From Vermamoeba vermiformis (taxonomy: Eukaryota): a stretch of DNA of 20,000 nucleotides. Below are positions 10,286 through 14,984 of this stretch, piece after piece. The translations under genes were made by a program, and so were the position numbers. The notes beneath the pieces are model-generated. The model did no database searches and had not been told where the DNA came from. It saw only the letters and a list, made by a program, of their open reading frames with translations. The DNA is taken from NCBI GenBank assembly GCA_045837725.1, contig JBEWZL010000291.1:46164-66163 (forward strand), in the 5' to 3' direction. Numbering within the stretch: the stretch's first letter is position 1; every line of letters begins with the position of its first letter.

Positions 10286-13200
10286 ATGAGCGGACGTAAG
10301 ATTACTCTCGCCGAAGTGGCCCAACACAACAAAGCCGATGACTTGTGGATTGTCGTCGCAGGCAAGGTGTATGATGTGACAAAGTTCTTGTCCGAACATC
10401 CCGGTAAGTTCGTACTACGATAACGTATTTATAAATGATATATTCACCACAATTTAAACATTTTGGCTCGTAATTTCGAAAGTGCAACGTTTCTTCAAAG
10501 AGTTTTTTTGGATTCAAATTACGTATTTAAAAATAATTTCGAGAATGAAGCCTTGTAGAATTAGTTATTGTTAACCGGGCTCAAATCCCCCCGTAAACTG
10601 TTTTATAAAACTGTTCAAATTAAATTAAAGTTTTAATTTTATTCAAATGTTTAATTTGCGAAGCGATTTAGAACTTCGATTTCTACATTTTATTGAAAGA
10701 ATTTGTAAATTTAAAATGTTAATAATAATTAAACATTTTAATTAATTGATACCAGCGGTGCTCGCGGTCACGTTCGGCACGTGGCTTCAGTGAATAAGAC
10801 ACTAGTATTTAGTGAACGTAATTTTATTTAGCGTTGCAATTACAATGCACAGTACGACAGTTCAAGGCGGCTGGTTGCTCTGCTTGCTCGTGTGTCATTA
10901 GCGATAAACTTACCCAAGTGCAGTGCGTCGTGTGGCTACGTGGCTTGTGCTGACTTTGACAATGAAAAACATGACTTGCGGTGACAACGAATCAAAGCTC
11001 GCTAACGATTGGTCATTCTAGTTTTCGGACAAGAATTTCCTATGAATTTGGCCATTTTGACCATATTTGGAAGGAGCTTGACGTCACCGCAGAATCTTTT
11101 CCGTTCATTTTTCAAAGTTTAATCACGAAGTAAGCCACAAAACCACACGATACACGGCGCCTTGGGTAAGTGAACCTACCACCGCTACTGACACTCACAA
11201 GTGCACAACAGCTGTCCCGCTGATCGTACTGTATATTTGTATTGCAACGTTAAATAAATATTATATACTTCCCTAAATACGTGTGATATTACTATTGCTA
11301 ACGGGCGAGGGCAATGCATCGCACCGCCAGTATTGATTAATTAAAATGTTTAATTATTATTAAAATTTTTAATTTATCGAATTCTTTCAACAAAATAAAT
11401 TAAAAAGTTCTAAATCGCTTCGGAAATTAAACAATTGCATAAAATCAAAACTTAAATTTAATTTGAACAGTTTTATAAAACGGTTTACGGGGGGATTTGA
11501 GCCCGGTTAACAATATGAATTTACTACGATGATTTTTCGTAATATTTCCAATGGAATCATTTATTTAAATGGATTTGTCTCCTCAGGTGGCAAGAAGGTC
11601 CTCGTTAATGTCGCTGGCAAAGACGCTACCAATCAATTTAATCAATTCCACAAAGCCGATGTATTAGACAAATACGCGCCCAAGCTTTATATTGGAGACG
11701 TCACCGAAGGAGATGCGCGTCACTCCAACTTGGATAACAAGAAATCTGTTCGTACTAACCCCGAAGGAATGACAGTCGCTCCTATGCAATTTGCTGCTGC
11801 TTTAGGAGGTAAGCTCAACAAATAGTCGACAATTATGTCTTAAATACAGTAGTTAGATGAATAGCCGCTATTTAAATTTTACGTTATTGCTCAGAAAGTT
11901 TTTAGAAGGCGTTCTAATTAATGAAATACGTTGCTAATATAGTTTATAATAGAGGGCACGTTCGGCGACCTCGTTCCGTTTGGGGATCCGTCGTGGTACC
12001 AAACCTGGCACTCCACTTATTACAACGAATCTCACAAGAAATTCCGTGCTGCAGTCCGCGAGTTTGTTGAGAAGAACGTGATGCCGTTTGTTAACGAATG
12101 GGACATGAAGAAACATTTCCCTAGAGACTTGTTCAAAAAGTCGTATGAGGCTGGTGCGTGGATCTTTCATAATACCGCGATTCAAAGGAGTTTTCTAATA
12201 TTCGATTATGGACTATAGGTATTTTGCCGAGCGGTGCTGGTGCTCCTTGGCAGACTGAATACGCTGGCACTCACATCGCTGGTGGTGTCAAGCCCGAAGA
12301 GTTTGATTACTTCCACGAGTTGATTGCCGTCGATGAGATGTGCCGCTGTGGTGCTGCTGGTGTTTCCGCCAGTTTTGTTGGTCTTAGCATCGGTAAGCGA
12401 ACCACACATGCGCTGGATCTGCTCGCGTCCCTGGTCTTACTAGTCAATTAGGCTTGCCTCCTGTCTTGAAGTTTGCCAACAAGGCACTCAAGGATAAGGT
12501 CGCTGGTCCTTGCTTGAAGGGTGACAAGATCATCTGCTTGGCTATCACTGAACCGTGGGCCGGATCTGATGTTGCTAACATTCGCACTGAAGCCAAGTTG
12601 ACCGCTGACGGCAAGCACTACATTGTCAATGGCGAGAAGAAGTGGATCACTAACGGTAAGCGTTATGTCCAAAAATTAGTGGCCGTGCGCGGATGTGGAA
12701 CAAGTGCAGTTCTAGCTAAAGTAGTGACCCGAACACGGCGTTGCCAAGCGTCTCGGGCACGACCACACTAACAAGAATGCACCGCTTCCCGTCCGATCAG
12801 CGAAGTTAAGCTTGTTCAGGCCTTCTTAGTACTGGGGTAGGAGACTACCTGGGAATCGGAGGTGTTGTGCTCTTATCTTTTTGCATTCGGCTCTTATTCC
12901 TTTTTTTGTTTTCGTGTGGGATTCTTTCTTTTTCCAATTGAGATCCGGATGCGACATCCGCTCGTGGTTTACTTTTTTTTAACGTTACCAAATAATTAAC
13001 TTCCGTATTCAGGTGTCTACGCCGACTTCTTCACCGTTGCTGTTCGCACTGGCGGTCCTGGTATGGAAGGCATTTCGCTTTTGTTGTTGGAGAAGGGTAT
13101 GCCTGGCATTACCACCCGTGAAATGCACGTCAGCGGTCTCTGGGGCTCCGGCACCACTTATATTACCTTTGAGGACGTCAAGGTTCCTGTTGAGAACCTG

Positions 13201-13897
13201 ATCGGCAAAGAGGGTCGTGGATTCAAGTACATTATGAGGTACGCATGACTATAATATTACGATCTAGATACTAAACTGACTGTTTTGTTTCTTATTAGTA
13301 ACTTCAATCACGAGGTATGCATGACTATAATATTACATTCATAGTAAACTAACTGTCTTAGCGATGGGGCATTATTGTTCAAGCCATCCGTTGTGCTCGT
13401 GTTTGTTACGAAGAGTCCTTCACTTACGCCCACAAGAGAAAGGCATTCGGCAAGAGATTGATTGACCAGCCCGTCATTCGTAACAAGCTGGCTCACATGG
13501 CGTACGTATTATTATTCCAAATTTTCGAAATTATGACAGTAAATTGATCCGGTTAAATTTTAGTCGCCATATTGAGGCTACTCAAAACTGGCTAGAGAAT
13601 GTAACCTATCAAATGACCAAGATGGGTGAACAAGAGGCCAACATCAAGCTTGGTGGCCCTATTGCCCTCTTGAAGGCTCAAGCCACGCTCACCTTCGAGT
13701 TGTGCGCTCGTGAGGCCGCACAGGTTATGGGTGGTATTGCTTATACTATGGGCGGTCAGGGCGCTAAAGTTGAGCGATTAAACCGTGAAGTGCGTGGTTG
13801 TGCTATTCCTGGTGGCTCCGAAGAAATCATGCTCGATCTCGGCATGCGTCAAGCCATCAAGATCTACCAGATGACCTCAAAGATGTCAAAGTTGTGA
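10286..13897 (+). CDS. Cytochrome b5 domain / acyl-CoA dehydrogenase fusion
   Basis: Exons 10286-10403, 11587-11808, 11953-12153, 12219-12392, 12452-12655, 13013-13238, 13299-13314, 13362-13501, 13564-13897. b5: EVAQHN..WIVVAGKVYDVTKFLSEHP|GG, AGKDAT..FH. ACAD: CLAITEPWAGSDV, NGEKKWITNG, FEDVKVPVENLIG, NFNHER, RKAFGKRLIDQ, AIPGGSEEI. Confidence 0.93.
10566..11515. mobile_element. Non-autonomous foldback/MITE-like element in intron 1 of the b5-ACAD gene
   Basis: 33-bp perfect terminal inverted repeat TATTGTTAACCGGGCTCAAATCCCCCCGTAAAC, about 6 mismatches over the first ~110 bp, and degenerate complementarity continuing to the centre (~11015/11060). No ORF. Ends can be read as TTAA|CCGGG..CCCGG|TTAA or TA|TTG..CAA|TA. 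Confidence 0.8.
12755..12873 (+). rRNA. 5S rRNA gene inside intron 5 (12656-13012) of the b5-ACAD gene
   Basis: ~119 nt with the eukaryotic 5S fold: GGGCACGAC/GTTGTGCTC (helix I), AACAAG/CTTGTT, CGCT/AGCG, CCTTC/GGAGG, GGTAG-GAGA-CTACC. Conserved GAAGTTAAGC, TTAGTACTGG and TGGGAA segments. Confidence 0.95.
12878..12907 (+). terminator. Pol III oligo-T terminators of the 5S gene
   Basis: T5 at 12878-12882 just after the 5S 3' end, T7 at 12901-12907, further T runs downstream. Confidence 0.75.
13239..13361 (+). repeat. Two homologous introns flanking a 16-nt microexon
   Basis: Introns 13239-13298 and 13315-13361 share GTA(C/T)GCATGACTATAATATTAC (21/22) and TAAACT(G/A)ACTGT (11/12). Confidence 0.9.
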
Positions 13898-14327: not shown

Positions 14328-14984
14328 ATGAGCAAGCTAATTCTCATCGCACTCATTGCTTTCGTCGGCATTGTTTTCGCTGACATAGAGAGAGTAAGAT
14401 ACCAGCTCCCTGCCGGCGTGATCTACAATGGTCCTCTGTTTTCTGGCTATCGTGGTAGAGTTCAGCGTGCTATTTTCTCCTTCGCGGAATCCTACACGAC
14501 CTGCAACCGCAACAAAATGATTGAAGTCTTCGACGAGGATGTGCTCTTCTCGTACCTCTTCGCCAGATACCAAGGCCTTACAGCTGCTCTAACCGACATC
14601 GATAGTTACTGCGTGCCCACCTCTCGCCCCAACAACGTCTCTGTCTTCTTTGAAGCTGATGGGTTCTCAATCGATCCAGCCACACGCAACGTTGGCGTGA
14701 AGGTTCAATTCAGACAAACAACTCAAGCTGGCGTTCGCTCGGTAGTCAATGATATTTGGTTTGGCAAGACCAACTTCTGGGGCGACCAATTTACCGAGTT
14801 CACCGAGTGGTTGTCAGATTCCGTTCGATTCCTCCAACAATACGGAGTGTTGAACTACGACGAAGGCGCCAATCCTCTCTTGCCGTGGCCTACTTATGTA
14901 CCTGGTCGTGAAGGTTGTGCTCGCCGTGTTACGCACACTTGCCCAGATGCACCTTGCCAACCTTCTCAATGCGTTCGTCCCTAA
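14328..14984 (+). CDS. Secreted NTF2/SnoaL-like protein with Cys-rich tail (218 aa, intronless)
   Basis: ATG 14328 follows a CAA-rich leader. Signal peptide MSKLILIALIAFVGIVFA. SnoaL-like pattern FAESYTTCNRNKMIEVFDEDVLF..YQG and FTEFTEW. The ORF is solid; the fold call is inference. Confidence 0.7.
   Translation: MSKLILIALIAFVGIVFADIERVRYQLPAGVIYNGPLFSGYRGRVQRAIFSFAESYTTCNRNKMIEVFDEDVLFSYLFARYQGLTAALTDIDSYCVPTSRPNNVSVFFEADGFSIDPATRNVGVKVQFRQTTQAGVRSVVNDIWFGKTNFWGDQFTEFTEWLSDSVRFLQQYGVLNYDEGANPLLPWPTYVPGREGCARRVTHTCPDAPCQPSQCVRP

What the first reader, a model, noticed from the sequence alone, without database searches (positions are those of the whole stretch)
12656..13012. Intact 5S rRNA gene nested in a spliceosomal intron and enclosed by a G-U-rich stem
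Seen: a complete 5S gene with oligo-T terminators lies in sense orientation in a 357-nt intron, where neighbouring introns are mostly ~50 nt. 12681-12696 (GGCCGTGCGCGGATGT) can pair with 12954-12969 (ACATCCGCTCGTGGTT) at 15 of 16 positions, four of them G-U, extendable by AGT/ACT and A5/T5. Inference: the wobbles suggest pairing in RNA. Looping out the cassette leaves ~50-70 nt, a normal intron size, so dispersed Pol III 5S genes could sit in Pol II introns without disturbing splicing. Alternatively the repeats are ends of a 5S-carrying mobile cassette. A local hairpin CGGATG-CGA-CATCCG (12946-12960) competes for the 3' arm.
Basis: partly seen in the sequence, partly recalled or inferred. Interest (0 to 1): 0.78.

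Follow-up and report, generated by a model that had tools for sequence, protein, structure and literature searches.

The report
5S rRNA gene inside a spliced intron
A complete 5S ribosomal RNA gene sits inside an unusually long intron of a fungal metabolic gene, the intron is still spliced out correctly, and a helix that could pinch the insert into a loop is better than chance but unproven.

Summary
Rfam calls a full-length 5S rRNA at 12755-12873 (+), at 104.7 bits against a threshold of 38. It lies in sense orientation in a 357-nt GT..AG intron (12656-13012) of a cytochrome-b5/acyl-CoA dehydrogenase gene. Contigs of 3 of 3 RNA runs from 3 studies join 12655 to 13013. The DNA run does not.

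The arms 12681-12696 and 12954-12969 pair at 15 of 16 positions, four of them G-U. A helix this good arises in 70 of 3000 shuffles. With the published yeast "zipper stem" geometry it arises in 10 of 3000. Its predicted stability depends on how much exon is included. No orthologue was available to test covariation.

The unit shared with other 5S copies runs only from about -36 to +12. The arms lie outside it, so the "mobile cassette ends" idea is not supported.

A new lead came from the only two other contigs recovered with this 5S. Both place it in sense orientation after a mid-domain GTAAG splice donor of a coding gene, one together with a tRNA-Ile.

Verdict: a real nested Pol III gene plus a candidate zipper stem, with about 0.45 probability that the stem is functional.

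The parts
11586..13897 (+). Host gene, visible part: a cytochrome b5 domain fused to an acyl-CoA dehydrogenase. Exons lie at about 11586-11808, 11953-12153, 12219-12392, 12452-12655, 13013-13238, 13299-13314, 13362-13504 and 13566-13897.
   Evidence: Pfam finds Cyt-b5, Acyl-CoA_dh_N, Acyl-CoA_dh_M and Acyl-CoA_dh_1 on the exon translations. Three junctions are confirmed by RNA contigs. The other exon ends were read and are approximate.
12656..13012 (+). Spliceosomal GT..AG intron of 357 nt, phase 1 (G|GT forms a Gly codon), hosting the 5S gene
   Evidence: A joint skipping 357 nt is seen in contigs of 3 of 3 RNA runs and in 0 contigs of the DNA run. The Pfam domain is contiguous across the junction.
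12755..12873 (+). 5S rRNA gene, full length, in the same orientation as the host gene
   Evidence: RF00001 scores 104.7 bits, covering model positions 1-120 of 120. All 119 aligned 5S columns are identical to the 5S of L001. An RNA contig of run X16 covers 12772-12859 with 0 differences.
12720..12736 (+). Upstream motif AGTAGTGACCCGAACAC (-35 to -19), shared by other 5S copies. It is probably an upstream promoter element of this 5S family (inference).
   Evidence: It occurs once in the window at up to 3 mismatches. It matches L001 at 14 of 14 positions and L002 twice at 17 of 18. Variants appear in 2 of 3 upstream loose ends of other copies in run X1.
12748..12754 (+). GCGTCTC at -7 to -1, identical in L001
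   Evidence: Alignment. The blastn match to L001 starts at intron position 93, which is 12748.
12878..12882 (+). First T-run (T5), 5 nt after the 5S 3' end; the likely Pol III terminator. A T7 back-up lies at 12901-12907.
   Evidence: Read. Exact sharing with other copies ends near 12885: the unique contig of X1 resumes at 12856 with k=31, and the X15 contig ends at 12884.
12681..12696 (+). 5' arm of the candidate closing (zipper) helix. It can be extended by 12671-12680.
   Evidence: 15 of 16 pairs. Duplex energy is -19.8 kcal/mol for the core and -24.6 extended. The helix is in the MFE fold of the intron.
12954..12969 (+). 3' arm of the candidate closing helix. It can be extended by 12970-12981.
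12946..12960 (+). Local hairpin CGGATG-CGA-CATCCG that competes for the 3' arm
   Evidence: Read. Its predicted pair probability is 0.02 in the intron alone, 0.13-0.15 with 50 nt of exon on each side, and 0.04-0.24 with 100 nt.
12996..13000 (+). TTAAC, the likely branch site; branch A at 12999, 13 nt before the 3' splice site. Inferred, not mapped.
   Evidence: Read by analogy with the CTAAC-like strings near the 3' ends of the neighbouring introns.

Best explanation
Shown: the window carries one canonical copy of a highly multiplied, dispersed 5S rRNA gene family. The copy is nested in sense orientation in intron 4 of a cytochrome-b5/acyl-CoA dehydrogenase gene. The intron is removed at 12655/13013.

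Shown: the unit that this copy shares with other copies is short. It comprises an upstream motif at -35 to -19, seven bases at -7 to -1, the 119-nt gene, and the trailer to the first T-run, about 12719-12885.

Inferred: the copy is transcribed on its own by RNA polymerase III. The basis is an internal type-1 promoter (textbook knowledge), the conserved upstream motif, and termination at the T5/T7 runs. RNA polymerase II reads through it as part of the host pre-mRNA.

Inferred, about 0.45: in the pre-mRNA the locus-specific arms 12681-12696 and 12954-12969 pair. The helix has 15 pairs, 4 of them G-U, at -20 to -25 kcal/mol. Pairing would loop out about 257 nt, including the 5S. The 5' splice site would then be an effective 54 nt from the branch site, close to the 47-65 nt typical of this gene's other introns. 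In that case the helix acts like the zipper stems of long yeast introns.
For: The 5S call is full length at 104.7 bits.

The spliced junction appears in 3 of 3 RNA runs and in 0 contigs of the DNA run. The Pfam domain is contiguous across the junction.

The family is multi-copy. Summed word depth over the 5S bins in DNA run X1 is 90,764-370,086, against 502-545 in the flanks. 165 contigs were laid. The tool warns that this is not a copy number.

The shared unit is bounded. X1's unique contigs stop at 12768 and resume at 12856. An X15 contig matches 12719-12884 and diverges upstream. blastn against L001 and L002 matches only 12719-12732 and 12748-12882 (alignment).

The helix is in the MFE of the intron. 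Mean pair probability is 0.83 for the intron alone, and also 0.83 when the 5S is blocked from pairing.

A helix of score >=30 arises in 70 of 3000 shuffles. One that also meets the yeast zipper geometry arises in 10 of 3000 shuffles and at 0 of 1714 overlapping same-geometry window placements.

All 4 non-Watson-Crick pairs that still pair are G-U and none is A-C. RNA-level constraint would favour that pattern.

The zipper-stem definition, and its frequency of 32 of 88 yeast introns, come from PMC12350175 (passages read).
Against: This is a single case with no orthologous intron, so there is no covariation test.

The whole-intron fold is not unusual: z = -1.60, and 8 of 100 shuffles fold as well.

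The helix depends on context. Pair probability is 0.56 with 50 nt of exon on each side and 0.00 with 100 nt. Enforcing the helix costs 0, 0, 0.5, 2.1, 8.9 and 1.5 kcal/mol at 0, 25, 50, 75, 100 and 150 nt of added exon.

The geometry filter was applied after the helix was known, and it assumes an unmapped branch point.

The Watson-Crick core alone (8 bp) is reached in 92 of 1000 shuffles.

The gene's other long intron (144 nt) shows no structure, z = +0.73. Long introns here therefore do not obviously need a stem.

Because copies are identical, Pol III expression cannot be assigned to this particular copy.
Confidence: 0.45

Rival explanations
1. The nested 5S gene is real, but the flanking helix is a chance complementarity with no role. 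The 357-nt intron is spliced by ordinary intron definition without help.
For: The best helix is reached by 2.0-2.3% of shuffles or window placements when position is ignored. The whole-intron z-score is -1.60. The helix vanishes from the ensemble with 100 nt of exon on each side. The 144-nt intron of the same gene is unstructured.
Against: With arms placed as a zipper stem requires, only 10 of 3000 shuffles and 0 of 1714 placements match. Four G-U pairs and no A-C pair are seen. The sequence left outside the helix (46-68 nt) equals the normal intron size of this gene.
Confidence: 0.3
2. The arms are a relic of the event that brought the 5S into a formerly about 60-nt intron. On this view they mark the edges of a roughly 290-nt piece of DNA copied from another 5S locus, for example by fold-back or microhomology repair, or by an old inverted-repeat element. 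They were not selected for RNA pairing.
For: The arms sit where the edges of an insert into a 46-68 nt intron would be. The shared 5S unit (166 nt) is much shorter than the extra length of the intron, so more than the unit was inserted. A T-rich string at 12968-12980 is identical (13 of 13, E 0.05) to the 3' trailer of the L001 5S.
Against: At DNA level the arms match at only 11 of 16 positions, and about 70% over the extended arms (my reading). I saw no target-site duplication beside them. Neither L001 nor L002 carries the arm sequences. Neutral decay of a perfect inverted repeat should give A-C as often as G-U, but 4 G-U and 0 A-C are seen.
Confidence: 0.15
3. The whole intron was created by a 5S-bearing insertion (an introner-like event), rather than a 5S landing in an older intron.
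For: GGT stands at both exon-intron boundaries (ACG|GTAAG ... CAG|GTG). Two other loci also show this 5S family after splice donors inside coding genes.
Against: The intron ends share nothing with the L001 or L002 introns beyond GTAAG. A 3-nt repeat is trivial. The intron position could not be compared with other fungi because no eukaryotic genomes were available to these tools.
Confidence: 0.05
4. The 5S RNA of this copy is matured from the Pol II host intron, as intronic snoRNAs are, rather than made by Pol III.
For: The copy is in sense orientation. Sense orientation is also seen in L001 and L002.
Against: The copy keeps an upstream motif shared with other copies and T-run terminators directly after the gene. 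Those are features of an independent Pol III unit. No RNA contig links the 5S to its unique intron flanks, although contigs cannot show absence.
Confidence: 0.03

Closest known systems
Dispersed 5S rRNA genes and truncated 5S pseudogenes of filamentous fungi (Neurospora, Aspergillus; birth-and-death evolution). Recalled from Selker, Metzenberg, Bartnik and Rooney & Ward; these papers were not read here. only lists later papers that use the terms.
   Same: There are many unlinked copies with unrelated flanks, a conserved gene plus short promoter-proximal sequence, and copies that keep only the 5' part of the gene. L002 retains about 50 nt.
   Different: This copy lies inside a spliced intron of a coding gene. 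So, apparently, do the two other recovered copies. I know of no description of that, and five literature searches found none. The upstream element is not the TATA-like box that I recall for Neurospora.
Pol III genes nested in Pol II introns: tRNA genes in nematode and human introns (recalled), and intronic Pol III units in human (PMC3509611, abstract seen in the listing)
   Same: An independent Pol III unit sits within a Pol II transcription unit, and host splicing proceeds.
   Different: The nested gene here is a 5S rRNA gene, in a fungus whose introns are otherwise 47-144 nt, so the insert multiplies the intron length about six-fold.
Zipper stems of long S. cerevisiae introns, e.g. RPS17B (PMC12350175, passages read; PMC2536676, abstract seen in the listing)
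   Same: A helix between a site shortly after the 5' splice site and a site shortly before the branch point shortens the effective distance. The published geometry is met: 15 pairs, 25 nt and 29 nt linkers, 54 nt in total.
   Different: The looped-out part is a complete foreign gene with its own stable fold. There is no structure probing or mutational evidence. The organism is not a budding yeast, and its branch point is unmapped.
Intron-hosted snoRNAs
   Same: A stable non-coding RNA gene lies in sense orientation in an intron of a coding gene.
   Different: snoRNAs lack their own promoter and are trimmed from the excised intron. This 5S has its own upstream motif and terminators.
5S-carrying mobile elements (5S-derived SINEs; Cassandra TRIMs of plants). 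Recalled, not read here.
   Same: A 5S sequence is embedded in a repeated unit that spreads in the genome.
   Different: The unit shared between copies here is only the gene with about 36 nt upstream and about 12 nt downstream. No LTRs, poly-A tail, target-site duplication or shared terminal repeats were seen.

Membership tests
5S rRNA (Rfam RF00001) | Covariance-model score above the gathering threshold over the full model | tested here: met
   104.7 bits against a threshold of 38, model positions 1-120 of 120, E 2.1e-22
5S rRNA (Rfam RF00001) | Helices keep standard base pairs | tested here: met
   No position is marked as a non-standard pair in the cmscan alignment
5S rRNA (Rfam RF00001) | Pol III terminator (T-run) just downstream | tested here: met
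   T5 at 12878-12882 and T7 at 12901-12907
5S rRNA (Rfam RF00001) | This copy is itself transcribed by Pol III | not testable with these tools
   An RNA contig matches the gene with 0 differences. The copies are identical, so expression cannot be assigned to one copy.
Spliceosomal GT-AG intron | GT..AG ends and a spliced junction observed in RNA but not in DNA | tested here: met
   A joint skipping 357 nt is seen in contigs of 3 of 3 RNA runs and 0 contigs of the DNA run
Spliceosomal GT-AG intron | Removal restores the reading frame and domain | tested here: met
   Acyl-CoA_dh_M profile positions 1-39 lie before the intron and 42-97 after it
Spliceosomal GT-AG intron | Mapped branch point | not testable with these tools
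   TTAAC at 12996-13000 was chosen by eye
Zipper stem (definition of PMC12350175) | [quoted passage not shown] | tested here: met
   15 pairs; linkers of 25 and 29 nt, 54 in total. This holds only under the assumed branch A at 12999.
Zipper stem (definition of PMC12350175) | More stable or more frequent than in shuffled controls | tested here: inconclusive
   10 of 3000 shuffles with the geometry and 70 of 3000 without it. Whole-intron z = -1.60. Pair probability is 0.83, 0.56 and 0.00 depending on context.
Zipper stem (definition of PMC12350175) | Forms in vivo and affects splicing | not testable with these tools
   Needs structure probing and mutants
Zipper stem (definition of PMC12350175) | Conservation or covariation in orthologous introns | not testable with these tools
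   No genome is held. RNA contigs of the diverged strain do not cover the intron flanks.
Mobile cassette with terminal inverted repeats | The same terminal repeats flank other copies | tested here: not met
   L001 and L002 share only 12719-12732 and 12748-12882 with the intron. The upstream flanks of 3 further copies in X1 and 1 in X15 diverge between -36 and -1. Only upstream flanks, plus one truncated copy, could be examined.
Mobile cassette with terminal inverted repeats | DNA-level inverted repeat beyond chance, plus a target-site duplication | tested here: not met
   11 of 16 Watson-Crick matches. The 8-bp perfect core is reached in 92 of 1000 shuffles. No direct repeat is seen beside the arms.

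The most novel reading that the evidence does not exclude
In this fungus the very numerous 5S genes, and at least some tRNA genes, may be lodged preferentially in sense orientation inside introns of protein-coding genes. On this reading 5S insertion is a regular route of intron expansion. The host introns would then adapt by evolving closing helices that restore a short effective distance from splice site to branch point. The basis is that all 3 loci seen have this layout: the window and the only 2 other contigs recovered. The 3' ends of those two introns lie beyond the contig ends.
Probability: 0.25. Interest if true: 0.75.

Novelty: new member of a known kind. Interest (0 to 1): 0.5.

Why it matters
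This is a clean natural case of a Pol III gene with a strong fold of its own sitting inside a short-intron Pol II gene, and it does not stop splicing.

If the closing helix works, the zipper-stem principle extends from budding yeast to another fungus. It would also show how an intron can tolerate a six-fold expansion by a foreign gene.

If the intronic, sense-oriented placement is the rule for this 5S family, it points to a biased insertion or retention process for Pol III genes. That could be avoidance of head-on polymerase conflict, or open chromatin in transcribed genes. It would also be a source of long introns.

Both ideas can be tested directly with the full assembly and simple minigene mutants.

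Tried and rejected
- **Whole genome.** None is held for this window.
- **The listing of cluster members.** The query for the closest protein relatives could not be made because the database was switched off.
- **Taxon.** The best relative of the last exon is an unnamed JGI protein at 97% identity. The best named relatives are at 69-73%, in Pezizomycetes, other Ascomycota and chytrids. An Atlas look-up of the neighbouring gene gave only SnoaL/NTF2-like fungal clusters. Window GC is 0.37-0.49. My early guess of an arbuscular mycorrhizal fungus was dropped for lack of support.
- **Collection scans with two 5S words.** Metagenome contigs gave 2 loci. Genome contigs gave 0 and 0. Viral contigs gave 0 and 0.
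- **RNAduplex on the whole flanks.** It pairs the entire flanks (observed -46.5 kcal/mol; 171 of 2000 shuffles as good). I replaced it with a local-helix score because it does not isolate the helix.
- **B-box idea.** I considered whether the reverse complement of the upstream motif is a tRNA-type B box. By eye only the GTTCG core fits, so I dropped it.
- **RNA cover of the intron flanks.** No RNA contig covers the unique flanks 12897-12978 in X8, X15 or X16. Contigs cannot show absence, so this is not used as evidence.
- **Bacterial promoter/terminator scan.** Not relevant to a eukaryotic locus.
- **Fold of the open-ended L002 intron.** Uninformative, z = -0.86.
- **Literature.** These term sets found no paper describing a 5S gene in a fungal spliceosomal intron: '5S rRNA gene'+'intron'+'Rhizophagus' (0 papers); '5S rRNA genes'+'within introns' (10 papers, none on this by title and abstract); '5S rRNA'+'dispersed'+'fungi'+'intronic' (26 papers, 20 listed, none on this; one preprint was checked by passages); '5S rRNA'+'introner' (0); '5S rDNA'+'inserted'+'intron of'+'fungus' (0). 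The library lacks most subscription journals, and supplements were not consulted.
Full report
**What is there**

Rfam finds one match in the 20-kb window. It is a full-length 5S rRNA at 12755-12873 on the + strand, at 104.7 bits against a gathering score of 38, covering model positions 1-120 of 120 with no non-standard pair flagged. Nothing else appears even at E<=1, and there is no tRNA gene.

The surrounding gene is on the same strand. Its exon translations match Cyt-b5, Acyl-CoA_dh_N, Acyl-CoA_dh_M and Acyl-CoA_dh_1. The Acyl-CoA_dh_M profile runs to position 39 in the exon ending at 12655 and resumes at position 42 in the exon starting at 13013. The 357 nt between them therefore interrupt a domain.

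The interval starts GTAAGC (12656) and ends CAG (13012). It is a phase-1 intron that splits a Gly codon.

**RNA evidence**

No whole genome is held for the window, so I used public runs. Of 24 runs listed I laid four: one DNA run (X1) and three RNA runs from three studies (X8, X15, X16).

- A joint that skips exactly 357 nt, with GT..AG ends, is present in one contig of each of the 3 RNA runs and in none of the DNA run. The shorter side of the joint is 21, 118 and 21 letters.
- The same contigs also confirm the neighbouring 59-nt intron (12393-12451).
- They also confirm a 16-nt micro-exon (13299-13314) between introns of 60 and 47 nt.
- The remaining introns, read from the sequence, are 144 and 65 nt.

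**The 5S family and the extent of the repeated unit**

In DNA run X1 the summed word depth is 502-545 over the flanks and 90,764-370,086 over the 5S bins. 165 contigs were laid. The tool warns that this is not a copy number, but it shows a very abundant family.

X1's unique contigs stop at 12768 and resume at 12856. With 31-letter words, exact sharing with other copies therefore spans about 12739-12885. A 295-nt contig of X15 matches 12719-12884 with 5 differences and then diverges upstream.

A scan of metagenome contigs with a 22-base word of the gene returned 2 loci.

- **L001** carries a 5S with the same Rfam score. All 119 aligned 5S columns are identical to the window's, and the seven bases before the gene are identical too.
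- **L002** carries the first ~50 nt of the gene (50 of 52 aligned positions identical) and then unrelated sequence.

blastn of the whole intron against both loci finds only two shared segments: the gene with -7 to +9 (12748-12882), and a 14-18-nt upstream motif (12719-12736). In L002 the motif is duplicated in tandem. In L001 it lies about 40 nt further upstream. Variants of the motif also appear in 2 of 3 upstream loose ends of other copies in X1.

I read the motif as an upstream promoter element of this 5S family (inference). T5 and T7 runs follow the gene at +5 and +28.

**The helix**

The arms pair as described: 15 of 16 positions, four G-U pairs and one C-U mismatch. Duplex energy is -19.8 kcal/mol, or -24.6 with the AGT/ACT and A/T extension. 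The helix is part of the minimum-energy fold of the intron.

*Is it more than chance?*

- Using a gapless local-helix score between the 99 nt before and the 139 nt after the gene, the observed score of 30 is reached in 19 of 1000 dinucleotide shuffles. A second run gave 70 of 3000.
- It is reached at 17 of 819 same-geometry places elsewhere in the window, and at 35 of 1714 in the second run.
[quoted passage not shown] The observed helix qualifies, with linkers of 25 + 29 = 54 nt, assuming the branch A at 12999.
- Only 10 of 3000 shuffles and 0 of 1714 overlapping placements produce such a helix.

*What counts against it?*

- The geometry filter was applied after the fact, and the branch point is assumed.
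- The whole-intron fold is not exceptional: z = -1.60, and 8 of 100 shuffles fold as well.
- Mean pair probability is 0.83 for the intron alone, and 0.83 with the 5S blocked. It is 0.56 with 50 nt of exon on each side and 0.00 with 100 nt.
- Forcing the helix costs 0, 0, 0.5, 2.1, 8.9 and 1.5 kcal/mol with 0, 25, 50, 75, 100 and 150 nt of added exon.
- The 144-nt intron of the same gene has no notable structure, z = +0.73.

**Cassette ends?**

The arms lie outside the unit shared by other copies, and neither L001 nor L002 has them. At DNA level they match at only 11 of 16 positions. The perfect 8-bp core is reached in 92 of 1000 shuffles. I saw no target-site duplication.

One oddity remains. 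A T-rich 13-mer at 12968-12980, which covers the end of the 3' arm and its extension, is identical to the trailer after the L001 5S (E 0.05). I treat this as low-complexity coincidence or a terminator-like string.

An insertion relic that marks the edges of a larger copied piece cannot be excluded. I give it about 0.15.

**A lead beyond the finding**

- **L001.** An aminopeptidase P / Peptidase_M24 gene on the same strand as the 5S ends its last visible exon at ...ASDITR|GTAAGT. This is profile position 96 of 208. The following 569 nt contain a tRNA-Ile(AAT) gene and the 5S gene, and no coding continuation. The contig ends 12 nt after the 5S.
- **L002.** A PIP5K gene ends an exon at profile position 188 of 288 with ...NPEDLR and a GTAAGC donor at 1154. 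The following 443 nt hold the duplicated motif and the truncated 5S in sense orientation, again with no coding continuation.

So 2 of 2 independently recovered loci look like long introns that host this 5S family in sense orientation. Their 3' splice sites lie beyond the contigs, so this is not proven. With intronic-sense positions making up perhaps a tenth to a quarter of non-coding DNA (my rough estimate from this window), two of two is suggestive only.

**Comparison with what is known**

- Dispersed fungal 5S genes and 5'-half pseudogenes are known (recalled, not read here).
- Pol III units inside Pol II introns are known in animals (PMC3509611, abstract in the listing; nematode and human tRNA genes recalled).
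- Helices that shorten long yeast introns are known (PMC12350175; PMC2536676, abstract in the listing).
- Five searches of the paper library found no description of a 5S gene in a fungal spliceosomal intron. The library is incomplete.

**Verdict**

The nested, correctly spliced 5S gene is certain. The helix is a credible candidate zipper stem: functional about 0.45, chance about 0.30, insertion relic about 0.15. The mobile-cassette alternative is not supported.

The organism remains an unnamed fungus. The best named protein relatives are at 69-73% identity.

Noticed in passing
window 13239-13361: A 16-nt micro-exon (13299-13314) is confirmed by contigs of 3 of 3 RNA runs. The two introns flanking it (60 and 47 nt) begin with almost the same 22 nt (GTAYGCATGACTATAATATTAC) and stay similar along their length. 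This suggests an intron duplication.
   Followed up: partly
L001 1-569 (minus strand): A tRNA-Ile(AAT) gene (388-461) and a full 5S gene (13-131) lie in sense orientation after a GTAAGT donor that cuts a Peptidase_M24 domain at profile position 96 of 208. This looks like an intron of at least 569 nt hosting two Pol III genes. The contig ends before any acceptor.
   Followed up: partly
L002 1154-1596: After a GTAAGC donor in a PIP5K gene (profile position 188 of 288), the 5S upstream region is duplicated in tandem (motif at 1226 and 1282). It is followed by a 5S truncated after about 50 nt, a 5'-half pseudogene.
   Followed up: partly
window 12720-12736; L001 about 197-210; L002 1226-1243 and 1282-1299: A conserved motif AGTAGTGACC(C/T)GAAC lies upstream of 5S copies whose other flanks are unrelated. 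Its distance from the gene varies: -35 in the window and L002, and about -76 in L001. It is a candidate lineage-specific upstream promoter element.
   Followed up: partly
window 12600-12610 and 13128-13138: A perfect 11-nt inverted repeat (GACCGCTGACG / CGTCAGCGGTC) lies in the two exons that flank the 5S intron. It could also bring the splice sites together in the pre-mRNA, or it may be chance. In the fold with 100 nt of exon on each side, the first copy pairs elsewhere.
   Followed up: no
window 12801-12848 (run X1): One DNA contig of run X1 joins 12800 to 12849. This is a 5S variant with a 48-nt internal deletion elsewhere in that genome.
   Followed up: no
window 12968-12980 and L001 1-13: A T-rich 13-mer (TTTACTTTTTTTT) next to the 3' arm is identical to the terminator trailer of the L001 5S (E 0.05).
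   Followed up: no
window 14328-14981: The neighbouring single-exon gene encodes a protein of about 218 aa with an N-terminal hydrophobic stretch. Its nearest Atlas clusters are SnoaL/NTF2-like proteins (scores 0.90-0.92).
   Followed up: no
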